IMG/VR virus record: IMGVR_UViG_3300029305_004519
Coordinates: 1 to 13,540 of that record
Reading direction: 5' to 3' (one strand)
Source of the DNA: a virus
DNA: 13,540 nucleotides
Shown here: piece after piece, positions 1-11,736 of the stretch
Layout of the letters: the number at the start of each line of letters is the position of its first letter
How positions within the stretch are numbered: the first letter of the stretch is position 1
Made by a program: the position numbers and the translations under genes
The notes under the pieces: generated by a model
What the model saw: the letters and a program-made list of their open reading frames with translations, nothing else
Told to the model about the DNA's origin: nothing
Database searches by the model: none

Positions 1-183
1 TTTGCGGCTTCTCAAGCAAATCAAAATGCATTTATCACTGCAAATCAAGAAGCTCAAACTGCAGAGTTAATTCGCAGACTATCAACTCCGTGCCCAGTGC
101 CAGCATATGTGGTACCAAACCCTAATTGCTGCTACGATTACCAAATCAGTCGCAACGTAGGCTGCGGTTGCGGAAACTTCTAA
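1..183 (+). CDS. C-terminal fragment of a hypothetical protein (5' partial). Q/N/A-rich, then a Cys-rich tail ...PNPNCCYDYQISRNVGCGCGNF. Stop TAA at 181-183.
   Basis: Frame 1 is open from the window edge to TAA at 181-183. No internal stops. The next gene's RBS lies downstream. Confidence 0.5.
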   Translation, partial: FAASQANQNAFITANQEAQTAELIRRLSTPCPVPAYVVPNPNCCYDYQISRNVGCGCGNF

Positions 184-210
184 TTAAATCAATGGAGGCT
201 TTGAATAAGA

Positions 211-630
211 ATGGAATTAACAGCTAATGCTCTACAAACAGTAGAGGTTAATCAAAATGTGTTATTTACTGACACACCCGTATGCGGAAGTTGCTCCATT
301 CTCCATCGTGAAGGTAGTGGTCAGGTGACTCTTCGCGGAATCACCAACCAATGCCGCGCAAGATTTAAGGCATTCTTCAGTGGGAATATTGCTATTCCCG
401 CTGAAGGTACTGTTGAAGCAATCTCAATTGCTCTTGCGGTAAATGGAGAAGCGATAGCTTCTACAACAATGATTCAGACACCTGCGGCAGTGGAAGAATT
501 TGCTAATGTAGCTAGTGCAGTATATATCGATGTACCTGCTGGTTGCTGCATTACCGTAAGTGTAAGAAATACAAGCACTCAAGCTATTGATGTTCAAAAT
601 GCAAATTTAATCGTAGAAAGGGTGGCGTAA
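211..630 (+). CDS. 139-aa protein resembling the BclA (exosporium) C-terminal C1q/TNF-like domain. Possibly the distal tip of a fibre or adhesin.
   Basis: ORF with GGAGG at 195-199 upstream. C-terminus ...ITVSVRNTSTQAIDVQNANLIVERVA and central ...IALAVNGEAIAST... resemble my recollection of the BclA CTD (ending ...SIIIEKVA; ...TIQVNGVPVPGT...). Stop TAA. Confidence 0.5.
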   Translation: MELTANALQTVEVNQNVLFTDTPVCGSCSILHREGSGQVTLRGITNQCRARFKAFFSGNIAIPAEGTVEAISIALAVNGEAIASTTMIQTPAAVEEFANVASAVYIDVPAGCCITVSVRNTSTQAIDVQNANLIVERVA

Positions 631-631
631 T

Positions 632-1330
632 ATGGATAAGCTAAAACAGATGAAGGAATGCTTAGTTGGCATGGTTGAAGGCCAAGTTTATGGAAACATA
701 GACAAGGTTGACGCGCAAGAGCTAGGCGCCGCCGTGGATATGATTAAAGATTTAAGCGAAGCAATTTATTATTGCACTATTACTGAAGCTATGAAAGATG
801 AGGGCGAAGATAAAGAAAAAGAGGGTAAAGGTAAACATGGCATGATGTATTATCCTCGTACTACTCCTATGTATCATCTTCCTTATCCTATTGAAATGTA
901 TGATCCTCGTATGCGTGAAAGATATAATGATCCCATGTATGCGCAGGGCAATGGTGGATACAATTCAACAAGCACTTCTGGAGGCAATAATGCCCGTGGC
1001 GGCGGTACCCGTGGCTATCGTGAGGGAATGATGCCTATGGATTATTACCCAATGTATAACGATGGTACTATATATGAACAGGGAAATGGTCGTGGTAGCA
1101 ATCGTAATTATTCTGACATGAGAGACCCTCGTGAAGGTCGTAGCGGCGAGCGCCGTAAGATGTACATGGAAGGAAAAGGCATGAAAGATAAAACGCATCA
1201 AATGAAAGAGTTGGAAGCTTACATGCAAGAATTAACGCAAGATATGACTGAAATGATTGCTGACGCAACTCCTGAAGAAAAACAGATGTTGCAGCAAAAG
1301 ATCAGCACTCTTGCTACAAAAATTAAATAA
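632..1330 (+). CDS. Hypothetical 232-aa protein. Helical N- and C-terminal regions flank a low-complexity Met/Tyr/Pro/Gly/Arg/Asn-rich core with repeated PMY / MYD / YYP motifs.
   Basis: ORF with AGGGTGG RBS 7 nt upstream. Stop TAA overlaps the next ATG (TAATG at 1328-1332). Strong compositional bias is visible in the translation. Confidence 0.6.
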   Translation: MDKLKQMKECLVGMVEGQVYGNIDKVDAQELGAAVDMIKDLSEAIYYCTITEAMKDEGEDKEKEGKGKHGMMYYPRTTPMYHLPYPIEMYDPRMRERYNDPMYAQGNGGYNSTSTSGGNNARGGGTRGYREGMMPMDYYPMYNDGTIYEQGNGRGSNRNYSDMRDPREGRSGERRKMYMEGKGMKDKTHQMKELEAYMQELTQDMTEMIADATPEEKQMLQQKISTLATKIK

Positions 1331-1653
1331 TGTTTACTATTAATGGAGAACAATGGTGGATAGTTTTAGTAATGCCATACGACGTTGCACTTTTAATGCC
1401 AAACGGTAACTATGCTATTGGGGCGTGTAATGACTCTACTAAAACTATATATATCAGTAATGAACTTCATGGTGAGGCATTTGAGAAAGTATTGTGTCAT
1501 GAGTTAGTGCATGCCGCGATGTTTGCTTATGATGTCATGTTAGAGCACGATGAAGAGGAGCTAATTGCAGAAATAATTGCAACTTTTGGAGAAGAGATAA
1601 TTGATATTACTGATATAATGTTCGACAAAATAAGAAGAGGAAGATATTATTAA
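1330..1653 (+). CDS. Small (107 aa) putative zinc metallopeptidase-like protein with an HExxH motif (CHELVHAAMF). SprT/WLM-like minimal fold.
   Basis: HELVH motif preceded by ...IYISNEL...EAFEKVL. TAATG translational coupling with the upstream gene. Stop TAA at 1651-1653 lies inside the terminator hairpin. Confidence 0.55.
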   Translation: MFTINGEQWWIVLVMPYDVALLMPNGNYAIGACNDSTKTIYISNELHGEAFEKVLCHELVHAAMFAYDVMLEHDEEELIAEIIATFGEEIIDITDIMFDKIRRGRYY

Positions 1654-1669
1654 TATCTTCCTTTTTTTT
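1638..1669. terminator. Rho-independent terminator shared by the convergent + and − gene blocks.
   Basis: Perfect 12-bp inverted repeat AGGAAGATATTA (1638-1649) / TAATATCTTCCT (1651-1662), followed by T8 on the + strand (1662-1669). On the − strand the same hairpin is followed by a CTTCTTATTTTG tract. The ruvC TAA stop is at 1668-1670. Confidence 0.6.
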
Positions 1670-2174
1670 ACCATGCAGCTGCACTATAATCTTTTTCTTT
1701 TTTTGGATGTAAAAATGCATGACCAATACATACAGCATCGGCTGTGTCATCACTAGTTAAAGATAATCCATATGTTCGATTTGCAAATTCTATATCCTTT
1801 TGTTTTTTCTATTCACGCTTTGAGGCGCGCCCATCCTCAATGCCGCATGTTGAGCGCCAAGAGCTTGGATACACCATTTCAATCTAAACTTCAGGATGTT
1901 TATCATGCATTTCAATATGAATAAACGCCTAAAGATACATAAGTGCACGAAAGGTATTAGTATTTTTACTATGATCTGGAATAACTTCTTCCATCACTAT
2001 TTTTTCAATTTTCATTTGTTCAACTATTGTTAAAATGCCGTCAACCATTTTATGGATTCTTTTATATAAATCGGTTGATGATGCGGTAATACAATTGCAT
2101 ACAAGCAAGTCTTTATCTTTAAACACTGCAAAACCAGTTGCTTTAGTTGAGCAATCTAACGCTAATAAGTACAT
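1668..2174 (-). CDS. ruvC: RuvC-like Holliday junction resolvase, 168 codons, with three in-frame TAG sense codons (plus-strand CTA at 1929-1931, 1884-1886, 1809-1811). Terminates at TAA 1668-1670.
   Basis: N-terminus MYLLALDCSTKATGFAVF is the RuvC fold catalytic Asp motif. After TAG the same frame continues ...AFIHIEMHDKHPEV[TAG]IEMVYPSSWRSTCGMRMGRASKRE[TAG]KKQKDIEFANRTYGLSLTSDDTADAVCIGHAFLHPKKEKDYSAAAW. The C-terminal DDTADAVCIGH matches the conserved RuvC C-terminal acidic/His motif (E. coli DAADALAIAITH). RBS GGAGGTG lies 5 nt upstream of the ATG at 2174. The standard-code ORF track gives only the 81-aa N-terminal piece. Confidence 0.75.
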
Positions 2175-2197
2175 AAATGCACCTCCATTCTAGGTAC

Positions 2198-2226
2198 ATT
2201 ATACTTAAAAATTTTTATTAAGTCAA
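2198..2226 (-). promoter_or_regulatory. Sigma70-like promoter P(ruvC): TTGACT-17-TATAAT.
   Basis: − strand -35 TTGACT (plus 2221-2226 agtcaa), 17-nt spacer (2204-2220), -10 TATAAT (plus 2198-2203 attata). The -35 is contiguous with the T6 tail of the upstream terminator. RBS and ATG of ruvC follow about 20 nt downstream. Confidence 0.5.
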
Positions 2227-2227
2227 A

Positions 2228-2252
2228 AAAGAGCAGATTAATTCTGCTCTTT
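2228..2252 (-). terminator. Rho-independent terminator ending the dut-containing operon. The stop codon of the upstream small ORF sits in the loop.
   Basis: Stem AAAGAGCAGA (2228-2237) / TCTGCTCTTT (2243-2252), loop TTAAT. On the − strand it is followed by TTTTTT (2225-2230 as aaaaaa on plus) running into the TTGACT -35. Confidence 0.55.
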
Positions 2253-2468
2253 CTATTGTTCTTGTTCTTTTTGAAGTTCTGTATTATATTTTTGAAGTGC
2301 TGTGTTATATTCAAGCTAAGCTTGCATTTGCGCCTCGTTATAGAGATCTTTTAAAATGATTGCCGCTTGATAAATAGGCAAGTGTAAGTCATTAATACCA
2401 TAATTAATAACACGAGCGACTTCTTGTTTAATCTATTCAAAAGCAACCTACTCAGGCATAATAGGCAT
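2238..2468 (-). CDS. Hypothetical 76-aa Gln/Glu/Lys-rich, probably coiled-coil, protein containing four in-frame TAG sense codons (plus CTA at 2448-2450, 2433-2435, 2316-2318, 2253-2255). Ends at TAA 2238-2240.
   Basis: − strand ATG at 2468 preceded by GAGGTG (overlapping the dut TGA). Translation is MPIMPE[TAG]VAFE[TAG]IKQEVARVINYGINDLHLPIYQAAIILKDLYNEAQMQA[TAG]LEYNTALQKYNTELQKEQEQ[TAG]KEQN. There is no TAA/TGA over 77 codons in about 33% GC DNA (chance about 0.015). It has nucleotide-level tandem repeats (TTTTGAAGTnCTGTnTTATAT x2) that correspond to heptad-like NTxLQK repeats. It is invisible to standard-code ORF calling. Confidence 0.5.
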
Positions 2469-2479
2469 TAAACTTCACC

Positions 2480-2965
2480 TCACTTATTTCCGCTAGATCC
2501 AAAACCTCCTACACCACGGGCTGTAGTGCCAATAGAAGTTGTTTCATTGAAAACAATAGGATTGAAGGGTTGAACAATAAGTTGGGCAATTCGTTCTCCA
2601 TGCTCAATTACTTGAATTTGATCTGAAGTATTTTTAAGTGCGACTATTACGGCACCTCGATAGTCTGCATCGATAATGCCTACAGTATTTGCAAGCACAA
2701 GACCGCGTTTTGTTGCATTGCCGCTACGAGGATAGATTGCGCCAAATGTGCCTTGAGGAAGCGCAATGGCAATGCCTGAAGAAATCTTACGTACCTCTCC
2801 CGGCGCCAAAGTAACGCGACTGGCGCCTTCAAGATCTGCATGCAGGTCATATCCAGCCGCCCAATCACTTCCATGAGTTGGCTCTTGCGCAGTCGGCGAA
2901 AGTTTTACATAATCAACAATAGTCGCATAATAATCAATTTGTGGAATAAAATTCATTTCAGTCAT
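2480..2965 (-). CDS. dut: dUTP diphosphatase (trimeric dUTPase).
   Basis: All five dUTPase motifs: AGYDL, PRSG, GIIDADYRG, GERIAQL, RGVGGFGSSG. Stop TGA. Confidence 0.9.
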   Translation of the reverse strand: MTEMNFIPQIDYYATIVDYVKLSPTAQEPTHGSDWAAGYDLHADLEGASRVTLAPGEVRKISSGIAIALPQGTFGAIYPRSGNATKRGLVLANTVGIIDADYRGAVIVALKNTSDQIQVIEHGERIAQLIVQPFNPIVFNETTSIGTTARGVGGFGSSGNK

Positions 2966-2967
2966 TA

Positions 2968-3219
2968 TTAAAACGCTCCAATCTTATATTCAACACTAGC
3001 TTCTCCGACGGGATCTTTAGGGTCATCAAAAGTCTTTACTAAAGTTACAATATAATATTCGTCAATAATTTCTCCTTTTGCTTTACGCTCTTTCTTTACT
3101 GAAGAATATTTTGATAAAATATATCTATTATCAGCCTTTGCTGCGTTGATTAATTCAGTCGCTTCTAATTCACTATCTGCGCGATGCTCTTCTGTTGTTT
3201 TTAATAAATATTTAGCCAT
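2968..3219 (-). CDS. Hypothetical protein (83 aa).
   Basis: ORF with AAGGAG RBS 9 nt upstream (GAGACTAAGGAGATAAAAGGAATG). Stop TAA 2 nt before the dut start. Confidence 0.6.
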   Translation of the reverse strand: MAKYLLKTTEEHRADSELEATELINAAKADNRYILSKYSSVKKERKAKGEIIDEYYIVTLVKTFDDPKDPVGEASVEYKIGAF

Positions 3220-3238
3220 TCCTTTTATCTCCTTAGTC

Positions 3239-3508
3239 TCACTTTACAAAACTAAATTTTAATTTAGCTTTGCCATAGCGAATTACTTGTCCATTCTCTG
3301 CATCTTCTAGGATCTTTGCACCATAAGAAGTAGATCCAGAAAAATCAATCTCTACGATATTGTATTTATCTGCAAGAGCATATACAATATCTCGAATATC
3401 ATCTGGTTTTACGCCCATTTGATCAACCAGAGTTCCATCTTTAATTACATAAATCTTTTGAAATGGTGCAGTAGGGCTAGTCCATACAATAATTTTATTA
3501 GTTTCCAT
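3239..3508 (-). CDS. Hypothetical protein (89 aa). Start moved to the internal ATG (METNKIIVW...).
   Basis: The long 127-aa ORF overlaps the upstream gene by 104 nt. The internal ATG at 3508 has a perfect RBS AAGGAGAG plus 5 nt (plus 3514-3520 ctctcctt) and removes the overlap. Stop TGA. Confidence 0.55.
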   Translation of the reverse strand: METNKIIVWTSPTAPFQKIYVIKDGTLVDQMGVKPDDIRDIVYALADKYNIVEIDFSGSTSYGAKILEDAENGQVIRYGKAKLKFSFVK

Positions 3509-3518
3509 TTTTCTCTCC

Positions 3519-3947
3519 TTAATATTCAAGCACTGCTTCTCCATAGGGGAAGAGATAATATGCAAAACATCCTTCAGAGTTACGAATCCACAACTCCCAT
3601 GTATTAGCCTCTTGTTCATCAATTACTAAAATTTCTCCACGATTAGACATACATTCAAGAATATCATTAACTGCGCTCATAACCGTCACTGGAGGAGCTG
3701 ATTTCCAAGTGCTTGTTTTATCAAGATTAAAGACAGTATAATCCTTTAATTCATTACATAAAAGCATTAGATATTTTTGATGGAAGTTATGCGTTACCCA
3801 TTGGCGTAAATGATTTTTAGCCAAGTCAAGCTCAGCTTCTGTAATTACTGGCTCATTTGCCATGAGTTGCTTATTCATTTCATATAAATTACCAAGACTC
3901 ACTTCTGATGTTTGCTTTGGAATTTTATCTTTATAATTAGCTTTCAT
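3519..3947 (-). CDS. Hypothetical protein (142 aa). First gene of the P2 transcription unit.
   Basis: ORF with RBS TAAGGAGCAAGATATG. Stop TAA. Confidence 0.6.
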   Translation of the reverse strand: MKANYKDKIPKQTSEVSLGNLYEMNKQLMANEPVITEAELDLAKNHLRQWVTHNFHQKYLMLLCNELKDYTVFNLDKTSTWKSAPPVTVMSAVNDILECMSNRGEILVIDEQEANTWELWIRNSEGCFAYYLFPYGEAVLEY

Positions 3948-3977
3948 ATCTTGCTCCTTAAATTACTTTATATAATA

Positions 3978-4006
3978 ATTATAATTTAATTTTTTTTAGT
4001 TGTCAA
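3978..4006 (-). promoter_or_regulatory. Consensus sigma70-type promoter P2: TTGACA-17-TATAAT.
   Basis: − strand -35 TTGACA (plus 4001-4006 tgtcaa), 17-nt spacer (3984-4000), -10 TATAAT (plus 3978-3983 attata). It lies about 30 nt upstream of the RBS and ATG at 3947. Confidence 0.55.
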
Positions 4007-4197
4007 TTATCTGTTTTTATATACATTCCGCAAGTGCAAATTGCGCCGATGGGCGCCTCACGAAACTCTTTACACATACATTTAGTATCCTCATTGCGGA
4101 AAATCTCAAGCACGCATGGGCAATGACCTTGCGCCTCTTTTATAGCCGCACGAATTTCTGCAGCCAATTCTGCACTGGCATATTGTCTTATTTTCAT
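4003..4197 (-). CDS. Small (64 aa) Cys-rich protein (HCPC...CMC...CTC), possibly metal-binding. Last gene of the nrd operon.
   Basis: ORF whose ATG (4197-4195) overlaps the nrdG TAA stop (TAATG). RBS AAAGGA upstream. Six Cys and one His in 64 aa. Stop TGA overlaps the P2 -35. Confidence 0.5.
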   Translation of the reverse strand: MKIRQYASAELAAEIRAAIKEAQGHCPCVLEIFRNEDTKCMCKEFREAPIGAICTCGMYIKTDN

Positions 4198-4679
4198 TAG
4201 CTAATCCTTTCCGCATATTGGTTTTGAGAAGCCAACTTTACGCCAAGTATTTTATCATAATGTGATTCGCTATTGGGGATATAGCGCCCAAATTTTATTA
4301 TGATGTTTGGAAATTGTTTTAATTCAATTAATTGATTTTCAATCTCATTTTTATTATAACCCGTATAAATAACAACATCGTCCATTATAGAATAACAATT
4401 GCGAAAAACAAAAAGGAAGTCGCGCAGGCCGTCGAATGTGTCAAACGGCTCTAATCCCTGGAAGCATACGGCGCGCGCAATTGGATTTGATTTGTAAAGA
4501 TTAATAATTGAGTCTATTGAGTATTCTTTAGTTGGGGCGGTAGCCAGTATGCTATTTTGACACACTGGCTGGCCGCACTCTTTATCACATTTAAAGCCTT
4601 TACAGATAGGAGATTCTATTGTCATACAAGGTGTTTTATAATTGACGAAATCTGTATCTATAATACCTTTCACTTTCAT
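4197..4679 (-). CDS. nrdG: Anaerobic ribonucleotide reductase activating protein (radical-SAM NrdG, short phage-type).
   Basis: Immediately downstream of nrdD with an ATGA overlap (4676-4679). ...VIYTGYNKNEIE resembles T4 NrdG ...VWTGYKLDEL. FQGLEPF resembles the GGDP(L) motif. N-terminal Cys cluster CKGFKCDKECGQPVC, with non-canonical spacing relative to CxxxCxxC. Stop TAA. Confidence 0.75.
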   Translation of the reverse strand: MKVKGIIDTDFVNYKTPCMTIESPICKGFKCDKECGQPVCQNSILATAPTKEYSIDSIINLYKSNPIARAVCFQGLEPFDTFDGLRDFLFVFRNCYSIMDDVVIYTGYNKNEIENQLIELKQFPNIIIKFGRYIPNSESHYDKILGVKLASQNQYAERIS

Positions 4680-6613
4680 TTATTAATTGGCTCCCATTTT
4701 CTCATTTTATATTCATTAGTACGCTCTTTAGACCATGTCTTAATAGGTGTATAAAATCCAACGATGCGAGTATATTCTGTTTCTATTGGTTTACCGCAGC
4801 AAGGACACGTTGTACCATAGAAAGCGTGATTATTCTCGCAGGCTTGAATCTTTGTGTTAAATGCAAAATAGGTTACTCCAGCATCAGAGATATAATTTAC
4901 CATATCCCAAGCTTTCTCGAAGCTATCAAAAGGAGAGTCGATATTCGCATGAAGAATAGATCCTCCATTGCAATAGCCATCAAACTCTGCGGCAATGCGT
5001 ACGCGTTCAGCAAGAGTTGTTTGAATGCCAAGAGGAATAAATTGGTTGCCATAAAGCGGAAGATCAAATACCTCTGCCTCGGGATAGAAGAATTTATCTT
5101 TTTTCATTAACTTAGCGGCAGCGCTTTCTCCTGGTATCTGCTCTGTATTTACATGATAATCAGCACCTGTTTCCAAAATAAAATCATCTGCCACTTGGCG
5201 CATGGTTTCAAAAATTTTCTTGCCAAGATTAGATGCTTGTTCTGTATAATAGACATTGCCAAATTCATCTGTACGAGTATAGCCAAAACGCTTCATTGTT
5301 TCATAAACTCCAATAAACCCAATGGTGTTATAAAGATGTTCAAAATCAACCAGCCCATTGGAAAAATTTGGTAAAAGCCCCTTCTCAACATTTCGCTTAA
5401 TAATATTTCTAACGCAGTGTAGAGCTTCAAGATTTAATCTTGTGCGATACTTAAGTTGTTCTAAATATTCTTCTTCGGTATCTACATCAAGCGCAAGGCG
5501 CGCAAGATTGATTGTAGACACCTTAACAGAGCCTACTTTAAGTGCTGTGCCGCCAATTGAGTTAAAGTAGCCTAAATCTTTAATGTCACTCTTCAAACGG
5601 CAACAGTTAGAAAGTGAAGTTACTGAATCGTCAATAAATAAATTACTGTCAGACCAGCGCATATTATGCTTTACGGCCCAGCGTGCAAATTCCTCATCCT
5701 GGAACTTACCTTCTTGTTTTAGAAGTGAGATTGAAAGCACTGGAAAAGTAAACATGTTCTTATCTCTAATATCCGCAACAGTCTCCATGTACCATTTTTG
5801 GAATTCAATAACTTCTTCCTCATAGTCAATCATAAATTCTCCATTCGGGAACTCACTGCCGCCAAATAGAGCTTCATAATAAGGTCTATCAAATACACTG
5901 GTATTCGTAAATGCAGATTGTGATCCATCACGAACATAGGGCTGATTCACTGCATAAACAAAGCGTTGGAAATTTTGGCGTGCGTATTTCTCTCCATTTC
6001 CGCTACTCTTGATACCAAGATAATCTTCTTCTATATCTTTATGCCAGAAGTAATACATATATGGAATAAGATTAGGAAGTCCGACCGCACCCGAAGAGCG
6101 ATTAGAAGCATAGCTAATAAACTCCTTAACAAAATCAACAAAAGTAGTTAAATGTTGAGCTGGCTCTGGATTAAACGGTGCGCCGATGAAGTACAATCCT
6201 TTTTCAGCTAGGTCTTTGAGATCATAAGCAAAACAATAATGTTTAAATGTTGAGGTATCAGCGTCATGCATATAAAGTTGACCAATCCACTCTGCGCGCA
6301 GCCATTCGTTTGCGCGTTTGAATCCAAAGTGTTTTTGCATTTCATAGTGAATTTTGTTATAAGCTAATAATTTTCTATGAGGTTTAGGCATTTCGTTTAA
6401 GAGAGTTACGATATCCTTTTTACTTACATTGCTATTGCCATCAATGCTTGCGTTAGCGACGACTTTAGTATCGATAAAGTTATCTATGAAATCGGTATAT
6501 GATAATTGATCATCATCAAAACCATTTAACCTAGCTAAATCAGTTCCGTACTCTCCCTAAAGTTTATTATAAGCAGTAACAAAATTCTTTTTTAATCTAA
6601 CATTAATTTCCAT
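4676..6613 (-). CDS. nrdD: Anaerobic (class III) ribonucleoside-triphosphate reductase NrdD, 645 codons, with one in-frame TAG sense codon at codon 19 (plus CTA 6557-6559). The track ORF 4676..6391 is only the portion after the first downstream Met.
   Basis: Strong RBS AAGGAGCAACAAAAGAATG at 6613. Frame reads MEINVRLKKNFVTAYNKL[TAG]GEYGTDLARLNGFDDDQLSYTDFIDNF...NEMPKPHRK... continuous with the 571-aa ORF. The ATG at 6391 has no SD. C-terminal Zn ribbon (C...CPCCGKP) and glycyl-radical motif TRIVGFY (resembling RVCGY). Stop TGA. Confidence 0.85.
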
Positions 6614-6818
6614 TCTTTTGTTGCTCCTTAATCCATTTGATAGCTTCAGTAAATTTATAAGTTACATTATCAACCTGTAAAATAGGTGCAGAACGGAACC
6701 CCATTGCCGCCATTACTGCTTGATCAGATACTGTGGTATATTGAATCTAAGCGGCATCTAATTTTGTTTTAAGAACTTTACATTGCGGGCAACCCGTTGA
6801 GTATAAAGTAATATTCAT
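6603..6818 (-). CDS. nrdH: NrdH / glutaredoxin-like redoxin (71 codons) with one in-frame TAG at codon 24 (plus CTA 6747-6749).
   Basis: RBS GGAGAAAATCAAATG. Translation is MNITLYSTGCPQCKVLKTKLDAA[TAG]IQYTTVSDQAVMAAMGFRSAPILQVDNVTYKFTEAIKWIKEQQKNGN. The CPQC active site lies N-terminal of the TAG and the cis-Pro region (SAPIL) C-terminal of it, so both halves of the thioredoxin fold need readthrough. It overlaps the nrdD start by 11 nt. Stop TAA. Confidence 0.7.
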
Positions 6819-6899
6819 TTGATTTTCTCCTTTTTATTTCATTTTAATTGTTTCATATTATAATAAAAATTATAATAGATAAATTATTTAATATTGACC
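6819..6899 (-). promoter_or_regulatory. AT-rich promoter region upstream of nrdH, with two TATAAT hexamers on the − strand (...CTATTATAATTTTTATTATAATATG...).
   Basis: 81-nt non-coding gap between the gmk-like stop and the nrdH RBS. -10-like hexamers are clear. The -35 is only weakly matched (TCAATA). Confidence 0.35.
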
Positions 6900-7529
6900 T
6901 TATTGTTCCATACGAGTAGGATGGATGCTATTTTTATATTGCTCAATATCCCCAAGCTGATACCAAATGCGTTCAAGTACAATTTCCATTGAGTGTCCAG
7001 AATGAGTTAAGTCTATACATCCATAATCATGATTATCAAGAATATAATAGTCAAAGTCTAGGTCTGCAAAATCCTCTTCATCAGTAAAATATCTTCTACA
7101 CATCTCTGCGCAATCAGGATTATCCTCTCTTGATAGATAACGCATTAATCTCTCTTTATCTGATGCATTTACATATACTACAGTAACTGCAATATCAGGA
7201 GATTCCAATAAAGCAGAGATACCTGCTGGATTAAAAACACCTAAATTAATTTTGTCTGGCGCCAAGGCTTCAATGGAAGTGCCATAAAACCAATCTCTAA
7301 ATTCGGTTGCTTCAAGCATTTCTCCATTAAGGACTTTGCGAGTAAATTCATTTAGTGTTAAAAAGTGATATGCTTCACCATCAATTTCTCCTTCTCTTGG
7401 TGGCCGAGTGGTGCAGCTTATAATTGGATTAAAAATATCTGGATGGGCCTTACAAGTGGCTCGTTGAATAGTGTCCTTGCCTGCGCCCGCTTTCCCAATG
7501 AGTGCAACTACTTGATATTTAGTTTTCAT
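6900..7529 (-). CDS. gmk: Guanylate-kinase-like nucleoside monophosphate kinase.
   Basis: P-loop IGKAGAGKDT. GMP-kinase motif ISCTTRPPREGEIDGEAYHF (resembling S.TTR.PR.GE.DG.DY.F). RBS AAGGAGAAAATAAAAATG. Stop TAA. Confidence 0.75.
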   Translation of the reverse strand: MKTKYQVVALIGKAGAGKDTIQRATCKAHPDIFNPIISCTTRPPREGEIDGEAYHFLTLNEFTRKVLNGEMLEATEFRDWFYGTSIEALAPDKINLGVFNPAGISALLESPDIAVTVVYVNASDKERLMRYLSREDNPDCAEMCRRYFTDEEDFADLDFDYYILDNHDYGCIDLTHSGHSMEIVLERIWYQLGDIEQYKNSIHPTRMEQ

Positions 7530-7701
7530 TTTTATTTTCTCCTTTTGTAAATTTCCTTATCCAAGCTTTATATTCTTCTTGAGCTTGAGCGAGATGCTTT
7601 AAAATAATATCTCGCTCAATGCTGCTATCTGTTCCTACTAAAATATGATACATAAACTCATTTTCATAAGTTTCTTCAGTGTAATCTTTTTGAATCATCA
7701 T
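7519..7701 (-). CDS. Hypothetical protein (60 aa), translationally coupled to dnaE.
   Basis: Its ATG overlaps the dnaE TGA (ATGA at 7698-7701). Stop TAA 8 nt into the gmk-like start region. Confidence 0.5.
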   Translation of the reverse strand: MMIQKDYTEETYENEFMYHILVGTDSSIERDIILKHLAQAQEEYKAWIRKFTKGENKNEN

Positions 7702-10700
7702 TCTTCCATATCCTTCCTTTCATGGACTAACTCCATATCTCTTCCATCGTTGAAAAGTGAAATCTTATAGATTTGATGAGTAGGAGTATGCTTGTAGGTT
7801 TTGGTTACGAACTGGTCACCACGCCTATAGCCCGTTAAGAGTAGCATCGTTCCTCTTTTGAACCAGCCTTTTTCCGTCACTTTCTTGCTTCCATCATCTT
7901 GAAGCTCCGACAATTGTTTCTTGTATTGCGCGTAGTATTCCTTCGTAAACTTAACAGTTACAACACCGCTTGGAGTTAACAAAGTGATGGACGCTTTATT
8001 ATCATTCTTTGCGATTACTGTTCCGATAATCTTATAGGTTTTCCAAATTGGAATTTGTTGGCCATTACGCTTGAAATAATATTCTGCTTCCGGGTTTTCA
8101 GGCAATGCAAAGAAATTTGAAATACCGTACTTATGGGTATTAATATTTGCTAATTCATGCTCATGATAGTAAAAACATAACGATTCCATTTCCCAAGAGG
8201 ATAAAGAACCTTGAGCATATTTATTCCAAGTATCCATAAAGAGCTGCGTATTAAGTTCGCGCAAAACTTCGCTCTGATTCTCCTTTAACCAGTCTCTGGC
8301 GCCGTCCATTTGTTTTTGATAAATTCCATCCCAAGTCTTCTGTTGAATACAAGTTAAACCATTAATAACTTCTAATTTTTCAATATCAAAGTTATCTTTA
8401 TAGAATTTATAGCAAGGTTCGTCAAATACAAAGTATTTTCCAACTTTTGTATTTGCTTTGAGATATTTATTAAATTCAAATACTCTACGCTCAAAGTCAA
8501 GTGACTCTGGAACCAATCCACGCTGAATAAGCCCATTAAAGTTTTGTAAAGTCAGTTTGCTCTTAGGCTCACAAGCCTTTGATAAATAATATGCCATGAC
8601 AACAAAACGAGGATGAATATTTAACTCTTTACCCCATTCTGTCTCAAGTCTATCAAAGGCGCCCGCCTTAATTAGAGAAATCATCTGCGTTTTATTAAGC
8701 GGACAACGCGTCATAAAATCGGCGATATTAGCATAAGGTCTGCCGCTTATTATCTGCTCAATTACTTCGCTATTGATTCCGCTCAATGCTTTCATACCGA
8801 AGAGGATTTGATTATTCTCAATATCAGGCTTAAAGCTAAATTGAGATTTATTTATATCAACTAAAGATACATTAATACCTGCTGACAAAATATCACCAAG
8901 TGCCTTTGCTAGTTTGGTATAATCTGTCTGCTTATCTTTTGCTTCTTCATCGTCATCTTCATTATCATATCCTTCAAGCGAACCACTATTAACGATTAAG
9001 TTTGCAGTATTCCAATAAATAGGATTCCATCTTGTGGCGGCGTATGCTGTCTGAAAACCAATAAAGCTATAAGCAAGCGCATGGATAATGGAAAACGAGT
9101 ATCCCATTTGCGGGCCGATACCATGCTTCCAAACGTAATGACCCATACATGGGGAGCTAGCCTGGTCAAGAACTTGTTGTTGCAAAGCAGGGATCTTAGA
9201 CATTTGCTTCTTTCCGACGATTTTTCTGGCGGCGTTGGCGTCCGCAAGGCTAAACCCACAAATCTTAGGATCCATCAACATCTGCATCATCTGCTCCTGA
9301 GAAGGAGGAACACCATGAGACTTTAAGAAGTAAGGTTTTAATACTTCTTGTTCCTCTTTAGTAAGACCAAATTCATCCATTTCTTTATACCAAAGGTTGA
9401 TATTATTTTTGAAACGAACATACTTTTCCATTGGTGTTTCTTGACCTTTTTCATTAGTCATAAGTCGCATCAAACCATTGGCATCCGCCAGCTCAAGAAT
9501 ACTTGATGGACGAATCTTCTTAGCGGCTTGGGCGCCCACATCTGAATCAAATTGGAACAATCCTAAAACTTCAACATTTTGAATTGGCTTCCAATACTTT
9601 TCTTCTTCAATAGGTAATACATTTGGATGAAAGTATTTATCATATATTTGGCGCAAGGTCATATCTGACTCTAATTCACCAGTCTCTTGCAACATGTTAA
9701 TGGTTTCTACGAGTTTATCTTGTACTTCCGTTACGAGGAAGTCGTATTTTACCATTCCAAGCGCCTCACAAGTGTGAAGGTCAAACTGCGTTATAACCTC
9801 TCCTTTTGGAGTTCTCATGAAAGCGCCAAATTCATATGGATCTTCATCAAACAAAATAACTCCAGATGCGTGAGATGAGCGCTTGTTCTTAAGACCTTCA
9901 ATCGAAGTCATAATTTCCAAAAGCCCAGGATAATGATTTACTTCTCTAACGAACGAGGCCACTGGCTTACGATCTTTATCTGGGTTACCATTAACCACAT
10001 CATTGATACTCCACAAGAATCCTCTCTCTTGCGGAACAAGAGAAGTAAGATATTGCGCCATATCAACATCAATACCGTCTGGATATTCTTCACTACGATA
10101 GCCGCGGCAAGCGGTCAATATTGCGCTCTTTGTGGTTTCTGTACCAAAGGTTGCAATAAGTGTACAACCTAAGTTAGCGCGAGACAGTTCATCAATATCT
10201 GCATTAAACTTGGCGCCACGCTCTTCCTTAATCTTTTTAAGAATGTAAGGTCTTTTGCTTGGACATAGATCTAAGTCTATATCGCCGAGCTCGATACGTT
10301 CCTTATTAAGGTAGCGCCAGAAGGGAAGGTTCCACTCTATAGGATCAAGTTGGGTAACTCCAAGCAGATAATGGTTTAGACCTGAGCAACTTGAACCACG
10401 ACCGGCGCCAACCATAGAACCGCACTCCCAAAACAGATCAATATAATGCTGAAGTGTAACAGGATATGCGAACATATTTGTTTCCAGTTTTTCACTAATC
10501 GTTCTTTTGATATCCGCCTCTTCTTCAAGTCTATCCAAATATTGTGAATGATCATTAACCAAATCATAAAGAGTTGCTTGTTTTTTATCGCTCAAACTCT
10601 CCAAACATTGATTTACCCAATACCTCTCCACTTGATTATCAGAATTTAGCAATTCGGTTAAAGTTGGATAGTGTATCGCAATAAAGTATTCTTCTTCATT

Positions 10701-11672
10701 ACAAGGCTTTGTTAAATCAACCTTAGGATACTCTTTTACTTCAACTTTGGGAATTCTTTGCTTATGACGAATACTATAATTTTCAATTTTATCATAGATA
10801 GATAAGCTATTTTTAAATAAATTGCTAATATAATAATCATCATTGAAAGATTTTCGTAAGTTTTCAAAAATCTCTTCTTCAGTTTGGAGATAAGAATATT
10901 CATAGAAACTATCTACTTCTCTTTCTCCGCCTTTGGAATTAAGATATGCTTTATGAACATATCTATCTTCCTTTGAGAGATAGTGTGCGTCACTGCCAAT
11001 TACCATTGGAATTCGCATTGCATCAGAGATTTGACGCAACTTTTTATTAACTACTATCTGATCTCTTGAAGCGGCGGGCGCACACTCCAAATAAAAGTCA
11101 TCTCCAAAAAGATTCTTACACCAAGAGATAAAATCAACTATATGGTTATATTCTCGTTGTCTTGTTTCCATATCAAACATAGCTTCTGCATTTATCATAT
11201 TTGCAACTGCTGTTGATAACTCTCCACCGAGACAAGCAGTTGTTGCTATAAGTGAATCTGGATATTTATTTACGATTTCTTTAAGGTCTGACTTAAGAGT
11301 TACCACTCTCTCCATACCACGATCCCAATAGCTATTGAGCCAAGCGCGCGATGATAATTCTCTTAATGCGCGCCATCCGACGGAATTCTTAGCCAAAAGT
11401 ATAAAGTGATAATACTTTTGACTCATGTCTCTTGTATCGCAGAGATATATTTCATTTCCAAGAGCCACCTTAAAATCAGGATGCTCTTCTCTTATCTTTT
11501 CACCGTAGAAACTTGCGGCGGGCAGGTTACTTAAACATTCATGATCAGTAATACTTACACCGGCAAGTCCAATCTTCACGGCTTTATCAATTAAATCTTC
11601 TACACGGTTAATACTATCAAGCAGTCTTGTGTTTGAAGTATCAGTATGCGTGTGGATTTCAAATCGAAGCAT
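7698..11672 (-). CDS. dnaE: DNA polymerase III alpha subunit-like (C-family, DnaE-type) replicative polymerase, 1324 aa. It contains no TAG codon.
   Basis: N-terminal PHP domain (FEIHTHTDTSNTRLLDS...GLAGVSITDHECLSN). Length and C-terminal OB-fold-like region are typical of DnaE. RBS GAGAGGAGTAAAAGATG. Stop TGA. Confidence 0.85.
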   Translation of the reverse strand: MLRFEIHTHTDTSNTRLLDSINRVEDLIDKAVKIGLAGVSITDHECLSNLPAASFYGEKIREEHPDFKVALGNEIYLCDTRDMSQKYYHFILLAKNSVGWRALRELSSRAWLNSYWDRGMERVVTLKSDLKEIVNKYPDSLIATTACLGGELSTAVANMINAEAMFDMETRQREYNHIVDFISWCKNLFGDDFYLECAPAASRDQIVVNKKLRQISDAMRIPMVIGSDAHYLSKEDRYVHKAYLNSKGGEREVDSFYEYSYLQTEEEIFENLRKSFNDDYYISNLFKNSLSIYDKIENYSIRHKQRIPKVEVKEYPKVDLTKPCNEEEYFIAIHYPTLTELLNSDNQVERYWVNQCLESLSDKKQATLYDLVNDHSQYLDRLEEEADIKRTISEKLETNMFAYPVTLQHYIDLFWECGSMVGAGRGSSCSGLNHYLLGVTQLDPIEWNLPFWRYLNKERIELGDIDLDLCPSKRPYILKKIKEERGAKFNADIDELSRANLGCTLIATFGTETTKSAILTACRGYRSEEYPDGIDVDMAQYLTSLVPQERGFLWSINDVVNGNPDKDRKPVASFVREVNHYPGLLEIMTSIEGLKNKRSSHASGVILFDEDPYEFGAFMRTPKGEVITQFDLHTCEALGMVKYDFLVTEVQDKLVETINMLQETGELESDMTLRQIYDKYFHPNVLPIEEEKYWKPIQNVEVLGLFQFDSDVGAQAAKKIRPSSILELADANGLMRLMTNEKGQETPMEKYVRFKNNINLWYKEMDEFGLTKEEQEVLKPYFLKSHGVPPSQEQMMQMLMDPKICGFSLADANAARKIVGKKQMSKIPALQQQVLDQASSPCMGHYVWKHGIGPQMGYSFSIIHALAYSFIGFQTAYAATRWNPIYWNTANLIVNSGSLEGYDNEDDDEEAKDKQTDYTKLAKALGDILSAGINVSLVDINKSQFSFKPDIENNQILFGMKALSGINSEVIEQIISGRPYANIADFMTRCPLNKTQMISLIKAGAFDRLETEWGKELNIHPRFVVMAYYLSKACEPKSKLTLQNFNGLIQRGLVPESLDFERRVFEFNKYLKANTKVGKYFVFDEPCYKFYKDNFDIEKLEVINGLTCIQQKTWDGIYQKQMDGARDWLKENQSEVLRELNTQLFMDTWNKYAQGSLSSWEMESLCFYYHEHELANINTHKYGISNFFALPENPEAEYYFKRNGQQIPIWKTYKIIGTVIAKNDNKASITLLTPSGVVTVKFTKEYYAQYKKQLSELQDDGSKKVTEKGWFKRGTMLLLTGYRRGDQFVTKTYKHTPTHQIYKISLFNDGRDMELVHERKDMEE

Positions 11673-11707
11673 CTTTTACTCCTCTCTGTTAGTTTTTATA
11701 TATAATA

Positions 11708-11736
11708 ATTATAACTTATTTTTTACAAAAAATCAA
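11708..11736 (-). promoter_or_regulatory. Sigma70-like promoter P(dnaE): TTGATT-17-TATAAT.
   Basis: − strand -35 TTGATT (plus 11731-11736 aatcaa), 17-nt spacer, -10 TATAAT (plus 11708-11713). The -35 is formed from the tail of the upstream terminator. RBS and ATG of dnaE lie about 30 nt downstream. Confidence 0.5.

What the first reader, a model, noticed from the sequence alone, without database searches (positions are those of the whole stretch)
6540..6818. Single TAG placed near the 5' end of both nrdH (codon 24) and nrdD (codon 19)
The first two genes of the class III RNR operon each carry exactly one TAG within their first 25 codons. The remaining roughly 620 codons of nrdD, and all of nrdG, have none. 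A lone recoded codon at the 5' end would make production of the whole oxygen-sensitive RNR system conditional on suppressor availability. It would act as a cheap translational gate, and early termination there would also uncouple the downstream overlapped genes. This is speculative but testable.
Basis: inference. Interest (0 to 1): 0.5.

Follow-up and report, generated by a model that had tools for sequence, protein, structure and literature searches.

The report
Amber codons read as glutamine
The two early TAG codons are real, but they are ordinary glutamine-coding TAGs of a phage that has reassigned this stop codon; close relatives lack them, so they are not a conserved switch on the ribonucleotide reductase genes.

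Summary
Observation confirmed. On the minus strand, the nrdH-like redoxin gene (6606-6818) has one in-frame TAG at codon 24, and nrdD (4676-6613) has one at codon 19. The rest of nrdD and all of nrdG have none.

Both TAGs lie inside folded, conserved protein. The window belongs to a monophyletic clade of about 120-140 kb gut or rumen phages. In this clade, in-frame TAG aligns with Gln, and replication genes are TAG-free while tail and resolvase genes are TAG-rich. Two sister lineages carry an amber-suppressor tRNA(CUA) with its own sigma-70-like promoter, at the head of the replication module. This is the known TAG-to-Gln (code 15) phage recoding.

The proposed 5' gate is not supported by conservation:
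- nrdD codon 19 is CAA or CAG in 66 of 71 relatives and is never TAG.
- nrdH codon 24 is Asn or Gly in relatives and is never TAG.
- Three of five lineages in the window's own clade have TAG-free nrd operons.
- TAG sites show no general 5' bias within genes.

One residue of the idea survives. Other lineages carry TAG at nrdD codons 21 and 25, so sites cluster at 19-25 (post-hoc p about 0.004-0.015).

Side findings:
- Related clades appear to read TAG as Glu.
- The suppressor tRNAs carry an extra arm that resembles a tRNA-Gln anticodon loop.

The parts
6606..6818 (-). nrdH-like small glutaredoxin-fold redoxin gene (70 aa, CPQC motif), first gene of the nrd cluster. Its TAA stop overlaps the nrdD start by 8 nt.
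   Evidence: Translation. The Pfam Glutaredoxin match is weak (E = 8.6e-4, 19.9 bits, below the 22.9 cutoff). 76 homologues sit at the same position upstream of nrdD.
6747..6749 (-). In-frame TAG, codon 24 of the nrdH-like gene. Best read as Gln.
   Evidence: The aligned residue in relatives is Asn (42), Gly (30), Asp (2) or His (1). No relative has TAG here, and relatives in the window's clade all have Gly.
4676..6613 (-). nrdD, anaerobic (class III) ribonucleoside-triphosphate reductase, 645 aa.
   Evidence: Pfam NRDD E = 4.1e-92. PDB 4COI/4U3E E = 1.7e-147 over residues 3-639.
6557..6559 (-). In-frame TAG, codon 19 of nrdD, read as Gln.
   Evidence: It aligns with the nearly invariant Gln of the YNKLQ motif: CAA or CAG in 66 of 71 relatives, never TAG.
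4197..4679 (-). nrdG-like activase gene (160 aa), no TAG. Its ATG overlaps the nrdD TGA (ATGA).
   Evidence: The Pfam Fer4_12 match is below cutoff (E = 4.8e-4). The Cys cluster is CKGFKCDKECGQPVC, not a canonical CxxxCxxC. The gene is conserved downstream of nrdD in 78 loci.
6624..6629 (-). AAGGAG Shine-Dalgarno sequence of nrdD, 10 nt before its ATG and inside the 3' end of the nrdH-like gene.
   Evidence: Upstream sequence printed and sequence.
6819..6899 (-). AT-rich intergenic region upstream of the nrdH-like gene. It holds the -10-like motif ATTATAATAT (6855-6864) and the GGAG ribosome-binding site.
   Evidence: The same motif precedes dnaE (11700-11709) and both suppressor tRNAs of sister phages. 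Function is inferred only.
1668..2174 (-). RuvC-like Holliday-junction resolvase gene with three in-frame TAGs (1929-1931, 1884-1886, 1809-1811). It is the only other TAG-bearing gene in the window.
   Evidence: PHROG 159/827, E = 1e-19. The family has about 30 TAG per 1000 codons in both kinds of recoded relatives.
7698..11672 (-). DnaE-type DNA polymerase III alpha gene (1324 aa), TAG-free. It serves as the contrast class.
   Evidence: 0 TAG in 21,403 aligned codons of recoded relatives. The best GenBank phage hit is SPbeta YorL at 39.6%.

Best explanation
The window comes from a large phage, related to contigs of about 120-140 kb, of gut or rumen Firmicutes. This phage uses genetic code 15, in which TAG encodes glutamine. 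The two TAGs are ordinary, lineage-specific Gln codons in a part of the genome (replication and nucleotide metabolism) where TAG is rare.

They are decoded by a phage-encoded amber-suppressor tRNA(CUA) that competes with host RF1. Full-length redoxin and NrdD therefore appear only once that tRNA is present, but this dependence is a by-product of the code change. It is not a conserved, position-specific gate.

Shown: the TAGs are in frame and internal; TAG means Gln in this clade; a suppressor tRNA exists in sister genomes; the TAGs are not positionally conserved.

Inferred: the window's own genome carries the same tRNA; that tRNA is expressed early; any delay in NrdD synthesis is short.
For: 1. 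Both TAGs are internal to conserved folds.
2. The window's clade (WIN, L001, L002, L003, L061, L062, L066, L077) is monophyletic on an NrdD tree. In it, TAG aligns best with Gln: BLOSUM sum for Q is 80 against 43 for E, and Q wins 1999 of 2000 bootstraps. Six of the eight distinct TAG sites that clade relatives carry in the window's gene families fall on a residue that is Gln in the window. At columns conserved in standard-code relatives, the conserved residue is Q in 2 of 2 cases. nrdD codon 19 is a conserved Gln.
3. Standard-code relatives have 0 TAG in 33,579 nrdD codons and use TAG as the real stop of the nrdH-like gene.
4. Amber-suppressor tRNAs occur in two lineages of this clade: L322 3000-3096 and L338 1351-1449. 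Their anticodon loop is CUCUAAA, and they score 55.5 and 56.3 bits on the Rfam tRNA model. The L338 acceptor stem has U1-A72, G2-C71, G3-C70 and G73, which is the E. coli tRNA-Gln identity set (from my own knowledge). L322 resembles a suppressor tRNA of the published TAG-to-Gln phage phAss-1 (PMC10607447).
5. TAG density differs by gene class: 0 in DnaE and the helicase, 1.5 per 1000 codons in nrdD, about 28 per 1000 in the resolvase, and 27 per 1000 in the L001 tail protein.
6. The two TAGs are not conserved, and TAG sites show no general 5' bias.
Against: - The window itself contains no tRNA and its full genome was not available, so the suppressor is inferred from relatives with 87-94% NrdD identity.
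- nrdH codon 24 aligns with Asn or Gly, not Gln, so Gln there rests on the clade-wide inference.
- The absence of TAG stops in the window is not significant on its own (P = 0.10).
- TAG sites at nrdD codons 19, 21 and 25 in separate lineages cluster more than a composition-weighted null predicts (p = 0.0045 for at least 3 of 8 sites in the first 25 codons; p = 0.015 for any 3 sites within 7 codons). A purely neutral reading does not predict this.
Confidence: 0.78

Rival explanations
1. Selected 5' gate. A start-proximal TAG is kept in nrdD, and sometimes in the nrdH-like gene, because it makes the oxygen-sensitive RNR conditional on suppressor tRNA at little cost per aborted chain.
For: - Distinct TAG sites at nrdD codon 19 (the window), codon 21 (10 loci, two separate tree clades) and codon 25 (8 loci, two clades) lie within 7 codons, out of 8 TAG sites known in the family. 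The composition-aware p is 0.0045 to 0.015.
- Core replication genes are TAG-free.
- In phAss-1, two suppressor tRNAs sit directly upstream of nrdD on the same strand.
Against: - No TAG is conserved at codon 19 or at nrdH codon 24.
- Three of five lineages in the window's clade, and the Glu-type relatives L021, L027 and L075, have TAG-free nrdD.
- The cluster statistic is post hoc. Without the window's own site it is only about 0.03-0.04 by my rough estimate, not a tool result, and it does not survive correction for about 20 gene families.
- TAG sites in other genes show no 5' bias.
- The suppressor tRNA looks like an early, host-RNAP-transcribed unit.
- TAGs in the nrdH-like gene in relatives are spread over codons 17-58.
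Confidence: 0.12
2. The TAGs are true stops. The genes would then be pseudogenes or sequencing errors, or NrdD would start at the next ATG (codon 75, window 6391).
For: A standard-code gene caller split the genes exactly this way: L081 has a 571-aa NrdD and a 36-aa fragment.
Against: - The sequence is identical in the separate JGI contig L081, which ends where the window continues.
- Each gene has only one stop, and the reading frame is fully conserved on both sides.
- Residues 3-85 align with the solved NrdD structure.
- No Shine-Dalgarno sequence precedes the codon-75 ATG.
- The CPQC motif would be separated from the rest of the redoxin fold.
- The same clade has TAGs in many other conserved genes, and carries suppressor tRNAs.
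Confidence: 0.04
3. TAG is a sense codon here but encodes something other than Gln, for example Glu as in the related Glu-type clades.
For: - Related clades of the same family show TAG aligned with Glu.
- nrdH codon 24 does not align with Gln.
Against: - The window falls inside the monophyletic Gln-type clade.
- Its nrdD TAG sits on an invariant Gln, while the Glu-type clades keep CAA at that very codon.
- The likelihood favours Q.
- The sister suppressor tRNA has tRNA-Gln-like acceptor features.
Confidence: 0.05

Closest known systems
Code-15 (TAG to Gln) recoded gut phages: crAss-like, Lak, and the Agate, Jade and Sapphire clades (Borges et al., bioRxiv 10.1101/2021.08.26.457843; Peters et al., PMC9523058)
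   Same: - In-frame TAG at Gln positions.
- A phage-encoded tRNA(CUA).
- Replication genes kept in standard code while structural, lysis and homing-endonuclease genes are TAG-rich.
- Standard-code and recoded members within one clade.
- Genome size and habitat (about 127-154 kb, cattle and pig gut) resemble the Agate clade.
   Different: - Membership of a named clade was not tested, because no terminase tree was built.
- In that model recoding gates late genes. Here the TAGs sit in early or middle nucleotide-metabolism genes at very low density (1-2 per 1000 codons).
Phage phAss-1, proposed genus 'Phassvirus' (Babkin et al. 2023, PMC10607447; GenBank OQ749652)
   Same: - A 136 kb TAG-to-Gln phage encoding DnaE-type polymerase, dUTPase and class III RNR genes.
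- A long-arm suppressor tRNA almost identical in design to the one in L322.
- Variable TAG presence in nrdG and dUTPase among its species.
   Different: - Only distant kinship: DnaE is 36% identical, and its NrdD was not detected by tblastn at E <= 1e-5.
- Gene order differs.
- phAss-1 has 36 tRNA genes, with two suppressor tRNAs directly upstream of nrdD. In the window's clade the suppressor lies about 26-28 kb from nrdD.
SPbeta-like Bacillus phages and Clostridium botulinum phage c-st
   Same: - The closest cultured relatives of the polymerase (YorL, 39.6%) and of NrdD (41.8%).
- Similar genome size.
   Different: They use the standard genetic code and are only about 40% identical at the protein level.
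Thermotoga maritima class III RNR NrdD (PDB 4COI, 4U3E)
   Same: Full-length homology (E = 1.7e-147), including the N-terminal segment that carries codon 19.
   Different: It is a bacterial enzyme with no recoding. Codon 19 corresponds to Leu there.
Classical amber suppression by tRNA-Gln(CUA), E. coli supE (from my own knowledge)
   Same: A Gln-type tRNA with a CUA anticodon reads UAG in competition with RF1.
   Different: - Here the tRNA is phage-encoded and serves a genome-wide reassignment.
- It carries a roughly 25-nt extra arm that is absent from cellular tRNA-Gln.

Membership tests
Genetic code 15 (TAG to Gln) recoded phage | In-frame TAG inside conserved protein-coding genes that are otherwise intact | tested here: met
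   The nrdH-like gene, nrdD and the RuvC-like gene in the window. Many genes in the seven other loci of the window's clade.
Genetic code 15 (TAG to Gln) recoded phage | TAG positions correspond to Gln in standard-code homologues | tested here: met
   nrdD codon 19 is Gln in 66 of 71 relatives. Clade-wide likelihood favours Q, which wins 1999 of 2000 bootstraps. nrdH codon 24 is an exception, aligning with Asn or Gly.
Genetic code 15 (TAG to Gln) recoded phage | Phage-encoded suppressor tRNA with anticodon CUA | tested here: inconclusive
   Not present in the 13.5 kb window. Present in two sister lineages, L322 and L338. The window's full genome was not obtainable.
Genetic code 15 (TAG to Gln) recoded phage | TAG not used as a terminator | tested here: inconclusive
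   0 of about 21 genes end in TAG, but the expected rate is only 10.5%, which gives P = 0.10.
Genetic code 15 (TAG to Gln) recoded phage | Recoded codon concentrated in late genes and spared in core replication genes | tested here: met
   TAG per 1000 codons: DnaE 0, helicase 0, nrdD 1.5, resolvase 28, tail protein 27. Gyrase, ligase, DnaB and primase carry 0-1 TAG each.
Genetic code 15 (TAG to Gln) recoded phage | Gln actually incorporated at TAG (proteomics) | not testable with these tools
   Needs metaproteomics or a reporter assay.
Class III (anaerobic) RNR operon nrdD-nrdG | NrdD catalytic subunit with a C-terminal glycyl-radical and Zn-ribbon region | tested here: met
   Pfam NRDD E = 4.1e-92. 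Full-length match to 4COI. The C-terminus has CPCCG and RIVGFYTP.
Class III (anaerobic) RNR operon nrdD-nrdG | Radical-SAM activase NrdG with a CxxxCxxC cluster | tested here: inconclusive
   The downstream 160-aa protein hits Fer4_12 only below cutoff. Its Cys spacing is C-x4-C-x3-C-x4-C. The assignment rests on position and size.
NrdH redoxin | Small thioredoxin-fold protein with a CxxC motif that is the dedicated reductant of class Ib NrdEF | tested here: not met
   The CPQC motif and a weak Glutaredoxin match are present, but the partner here is class III NrdD, not NrdEF. 'nrdH-like redoxin' is the safer name. Redoxin-dependent class III RNRs are known (my own knowledge, not tested here).
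Programmed or regulatory stop-codon gate (a conserved, position-specific recoding site) | The stop codon is conserved at the same position across relatives | tested here: not met
   No relative has TAG at nrdD codon 19 or nrdH codon 24.

The most novel reading that the evidence does not exclude
This one phage family may hold two different amber reassignments: TAG to Gln in the window's clade and TAG to Glu in related clades. I found no report of a TAG-to-Glu code in phages in three literature searches. Codons 19-25 of nrdD acquired TAG under both codes.

A possible route, by inference only: the suppressor may be a tRNA-Gln-like molecule that is glutamylated by the non-discriminating GluRS of Firmicutes. 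It would then end up carrying Gln or Glu depending on whether GatCAB transamidates it.

The probability given is for TAG to Glu being real in those relatives. A selected nrdD 5' gate on top of that is about 0.1.
Probability: 0.55. Interest if true: 0.75.

Novelty: new member of a known kind. Interest (0 to 1): 0.35.

Why it matters
For the finding itself:
- The window should be annotated with translation table 15. Standard-code callers truncate NrdD to 571 aa and split the redoxin gene.
- The two early TAGs need no special mechanism beyond the known amber-to-Gln recoding of gut phages.
- The window is a clean example of how sparsely TAG penetrates early and middle genes. DnaE, the helicase, ligase and primase have none, while the RNR genes have the occasional lineage-specific one. 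This helps date and order the spread of a reassigned codon through a genome.

The larger value lies in what the comparison exposed:
- Standard-code, TAG-as-Gln and apparent TAG-as-Glu phages sit intermixed in one family at 70-90% protein identity. That makes it a natural system for studying how a stop codon changes meaning.
- A widespread suppressor tRNA design was found, with 54 exact motif hits in IMG/VR. Its extra arm looks like a tRNA-Gln anticodon loop.

Tried and rejected
- Megablast of the whole window against GenBank phages found no match.
- No tRNA turned up in the window, in 80 nrdD-centred loci apart from ordinary tRNAs in a few standard-code loci, or in 60 of the 61 RecJ-anchored loci.
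- A guessed Gln-derived suppressor pattern returned 0 hits.
That scan was wasted.
- The suppressor was finally found by walking with RecJ and then LigA as anchors.
- A third walk with an RNA-ligase anchor, plus Rfam at E <= 1, still found no tRNA at all in the Glu-type contigs. In total, 53 kb of IMGVR_UViG_3300037400_003528 were covered.
- A metagenome scan for the L338-type tRNA gave one related contig (L503) whose flanks differ, so it could not be tied to the window's phage.
- The look-up of encoding contigs with the DnaE protein found nothing on record.
- I considered an internal restart at Met75 of NrdD and rejected it: there is no Shine-Dalgarno sequence, and the N-terminus is structural.
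- I considered a general preference for cheap early termination and rejected it, because TAG sites show no 5' bias across 458 unique sites.
- I treated 'no TAG stops in the window' as evidence for recoding and downgraded it (P = 0.10).
- A 514-aa TAG-rich ORF next to gyrB in the Glu-type loci was checked as a possible synthetase. By sequence inspection it is a GH25/CHAP-type endolysin.
Full report
**What is there.** The genes of interest are on the minus strand.
Its only internal stop is TAG at codon 24 (6747-6749), after the CPQC motif.
- nrdD runs 6613 to 4676 (645 aa). Its only internal stop is TAG at codon 19 (6557-6559).
- The nrdG-like gene (4679 to 4197) has none.

The stop of the nrdH-like gene overlaps the nrdD start by 8 nt, and the nrdD stop overlaps the nrdG start (ATGA). 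nrdD also has its own AAGGAG 10 nt before its ATG.

It is a RuvC-like resolvase at 1668-2174(-), with three TAGs at codons 82, 97 and 122.

**The TAGs are internal sense codons, not gene ends or errors.**
- NrdD aligns from residue 3 to 639 with the solved T. maritima enzyme (4COI, E = 1.7e-147), straight across codon 19.
- 71 phage relatives align without gaps from the first residue.
- In the redoxin, the CxxC motif lies before the TAG and the rest of the fold after it.
- JGI contig L081 is 100% identical over window 1-7411 and ends where the window continues. A standard-code gene caller had cut NrdD to 571 aa there.

**Context.** The window is a phage replication and nucleotide-metabolism module. 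It encodes a Dda-like helicase, a DnaE-type polymerase (best cultured hit SPbeta YorL, 39.6%), guanylate kinase, the nrd genes, dUTPase and the resolvase. No GenBank phage is close at the DNA level. IMG/VR holds 80 related loci on contigs of up to about 165 kb. Related contigs were binned into Clostridia and Lachnospiraceae MAGs from ruminant, rabbit and other gut samples.

**Three coding states in one family.** I translated all loci with TAG as a marker and aligned them to one another.
- Most relatives have no in-frame TAG at all: 0 in 33,579 nrdD codons and 0 in 27,846 dnaE codons. They use TAG as the true stop of the nrdH-like gene. These use the standard code.
- The window forms a monophyletic NrdD clade with L001, L002, L003, L061, L062, L066 and L077. 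In this clade TAG aligns with Gln. Q is the majority aligned residue at 18 of 60 unique sites. The BLOSUM sum is 80 for Q against 43 for E, and Q wins 1999 of 2000 bootstraps. Six of the eight distinct TAG sites that clade relatives carry in the window's gene families fall on a residue that is Gln in the window.
- A third set of 19 loci, in several tree clades, has TAG aligned overwhelmingly with Glu: E 130, D 36, K 26 and Q 13 of 315 unique sites. The BLOSUM sum is 632 for E against 282 and 258 for the next two, and E wins 2000 of 2000 bootstraps. At columns conserved in standard-code relatives, the residue is E in 5 of 5 cases.

**The suppressor.** The window has no tRNA, and neither does any recoded nrdD locus. 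I walked along the contigs with RecJ and then LigA as anchors. This found a tRNA with anticodon loop CUCUAAA in two lineages of the window's clade:
- L322 3000-3096, on the contig of L002;
- L338 1351-1449, on the contig of L001, the window's closest relative at 94% NrdD identity.

Both score about 56 bits on the Rfam tRNA model. The L338 acceptor stem (U1-A72, G2-C71, G3-C70, G73) matches the tRNA-Gln identity set known from E. coli (my own knowledge). L322 closely resembles a suppressor of phAss-1, a published 136 kb TAG-to-Gln phage.

Each tRNA has a 10/12 sigma-70-like promoter just upstream, and in L338 a terminator just downstream. Each sits at the head of a co-oriented run of nearly TAG-free genes that includes gyrB, gyrA, ligA, dnaB and primase. 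If the contigs are circular, the tRNA lies about 26-28 kb from nrdD. This placement points to early supply of the suppressor, which is an inference.

- At nrdD codon 19, relatives have CAA (51) or CAG (15) of 71, and never TAG. L001, L002 and L003 in the window's own clade have CAA.
- At nrdH codon 24, relatives have Asn (42), Gly (30), Asp (2) or His (1), and never TAG. Relatives in the window's clade all have Gly.
- In the window's clade, the L001, L002/L003 and L066 lineages have no TAG anywhere in the three nrd genes. L061, L062 and L077 have TAGs at nrdD codons 153 and 492 instead.
- Across all genes, TAG sites are not biased toward the 5' end (window's clade n = 90, KS p = 0.74; Glu-type set n = 368, p = 0.24).

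The two TAGs are therefore lineage-specific substitutions. Dependence of NrdD and the redoxin on the suppressor is real, but it looks like a consequence of the code rather than a maintained control point.

What is conserved is the gene-class pattern already described by Borges et al.. Core replication genes are TAG-free, RNR genes are TAG-poor (1.5-2.4 per 1000 codons), and the resolvase, tail, lysis and homing-endonuclease genes are TAG-rich.

**What keeps the idea alive.** In the Glu-type relatives, nrdD carries TAG at codon 21 (10 loci) and at codon 25 (8 loci). Each of these sites occurs in two separate clades of the NJ tree, often as the only TAG in the gene. Together with the window's codon 19, three of the family's eight nrdD TAG sites fall within seven codons.

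A simulation weighted by the residue preferences of each code gives p = 0.0045 for at least 3 of 8 sites in the first 25 codons. It gives p = 0.015 for any three sites within seven codons. This is post hoc. It drops to roughly 0.03-0.04 by my rough estimate if the hypothesis-generating site is removed. It concerns one of about twenty gene families, and the tree is too weakly resolved to count independent gains. I treat it as a lead, not a result.

**Comparison with known systems.** This works like code-15 phage recoding and, on the features testable here, belongs to it. The caveat is that the tRNA was seen only in sister genomes. It is not a conserved programmed-recoding site. 'NrdH' is a loose name, because the protein is a small CxxC redoxin next to a class III enzyme rather than a class Ib one. 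The nrdG-like gene is assigned by position and a sub-threshold match.

**Novelty.** The finding itself is a new member of a known kind. Two by-products deserve follow-up.
- The apparent TAG-to-Glu relatives. No such phage code appeared in three literature searches, which is a limited check. No tRNA at all was found in 53 kb of one such contig.
- The suppressor tRNA design. Its extra arm has the loop CUCUGAA, which resembles a tRNA-Gln(CUG) anticodon loop. The composite motif has 54 exact IMG/VR hits against about 0.2 expected by my estimate, and the short stem covaries.

Noticed in passing
Related loci L007-9, L012, L013, L016, L018-21, L027, L042, L045, L063, L071, L072, L075, L078, L080 (e.g. 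L042 298-21933): In these relatives, in-frame TAG aligns with Glu rather than Gln: E 130, D 36, K 26 and Q 13 of 315 unique sites. Glu wins 2000 of 2000 bootstraps, and the residue is E at 5 of 5 columns conserved in standard-code relatives. This is a candidate TAG-to-Glu phage code sitting next to TAG-to-Gln and standard-code relatives. No suppressor tRNA was found in 53 kb of one such contig.
   Followed up: partly
L322 3000-3096; L338 1351-1449; L408 2749-2835; OQ749652 62445-62532; 54 IMG/VR loci L442-L495: The amber-suppressor tRNAs carry a roughly 25-nt extra arm. Its 7-nt loop is CUCUGAA (GUCUGCU in L338), which resembles a tRNA-Gln(CUG) anticodon loop. The 3-bp stem covaries. The composite motif has 54 exact hits on 80-195 kb viral contigs. 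It may be an identity-mimic or a relic of a duplicated anticodon arm.
   Followed up: partly
L061, L062, L077 and L066 nrdD (e.g. L062 8384-11569), insertion at the site equal to window nrdD codon ~136: A roughly 405-aa in-frame insertion has intein hallmarks. It starts with Cys, contains LAGLIDADG-type motifs, and ends in SHN followed by Cys. It splits FKHYC|FAYD. The window's allele is intein-free.
   Followed up: partly
window 1668-2174 (-): The RuvC-like Holliday-junction resolvase gene has three in-frame TAGs. Standard-code ORF calling breaks it into fragments. In relatives of both recoding types it is the most TAG-dense family of the module, at about 30 per 1000 codons.
   Followed up: yes
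window 6855-6864, 11700-11709, 3970-3979 (-); L322 ~2975-2985; L338 ~1316-1326: A -10-like motif, ATTAT(A/T)ATAT, precedes the nrdH-like gene, dnaE and the 142-aa gene at 3519-3947 in the window. It also precedes the suppressor tRNAs of sister phages. This hints at one shared promoter class for the suppressor and the replication and RNR genes.
   Followed up: partly
OQ749652 (phAss-1) 60190-62703: In this published TAG-to-Gln phage, two tRNA-Sup(CTA) genes and a tRNA-Leu lie directly upstream of nrdD-nrdG on the same strand. The suppressor and the anaerobic RNR are therefore adjacent, which is not the case in the window's family.
   Followed up: no
L299 1-2024; L282 928-2681: The Glu-type relatives carry a tRNA-repair-like trio (an RNA ligase with a KIDGS motif, a P-loop kinase and a metallophosphatase). 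They also carry a holin plus a GH25/CHAP-type endolysin (9 TAGs) immediately upstream of gyrB. All of these assignments are by sequence inspection.
   Followed up: no
L011 13209-13290, L014, L036, L041; L053 14999-15335; L060 583-873: Standard-code relatives carry ordinary tRNA genes (Leu-CAA; Pro, Gly, Ser and Gln) within a few kb of nrdD. The recoded relatives have none there.
   Followed up: no
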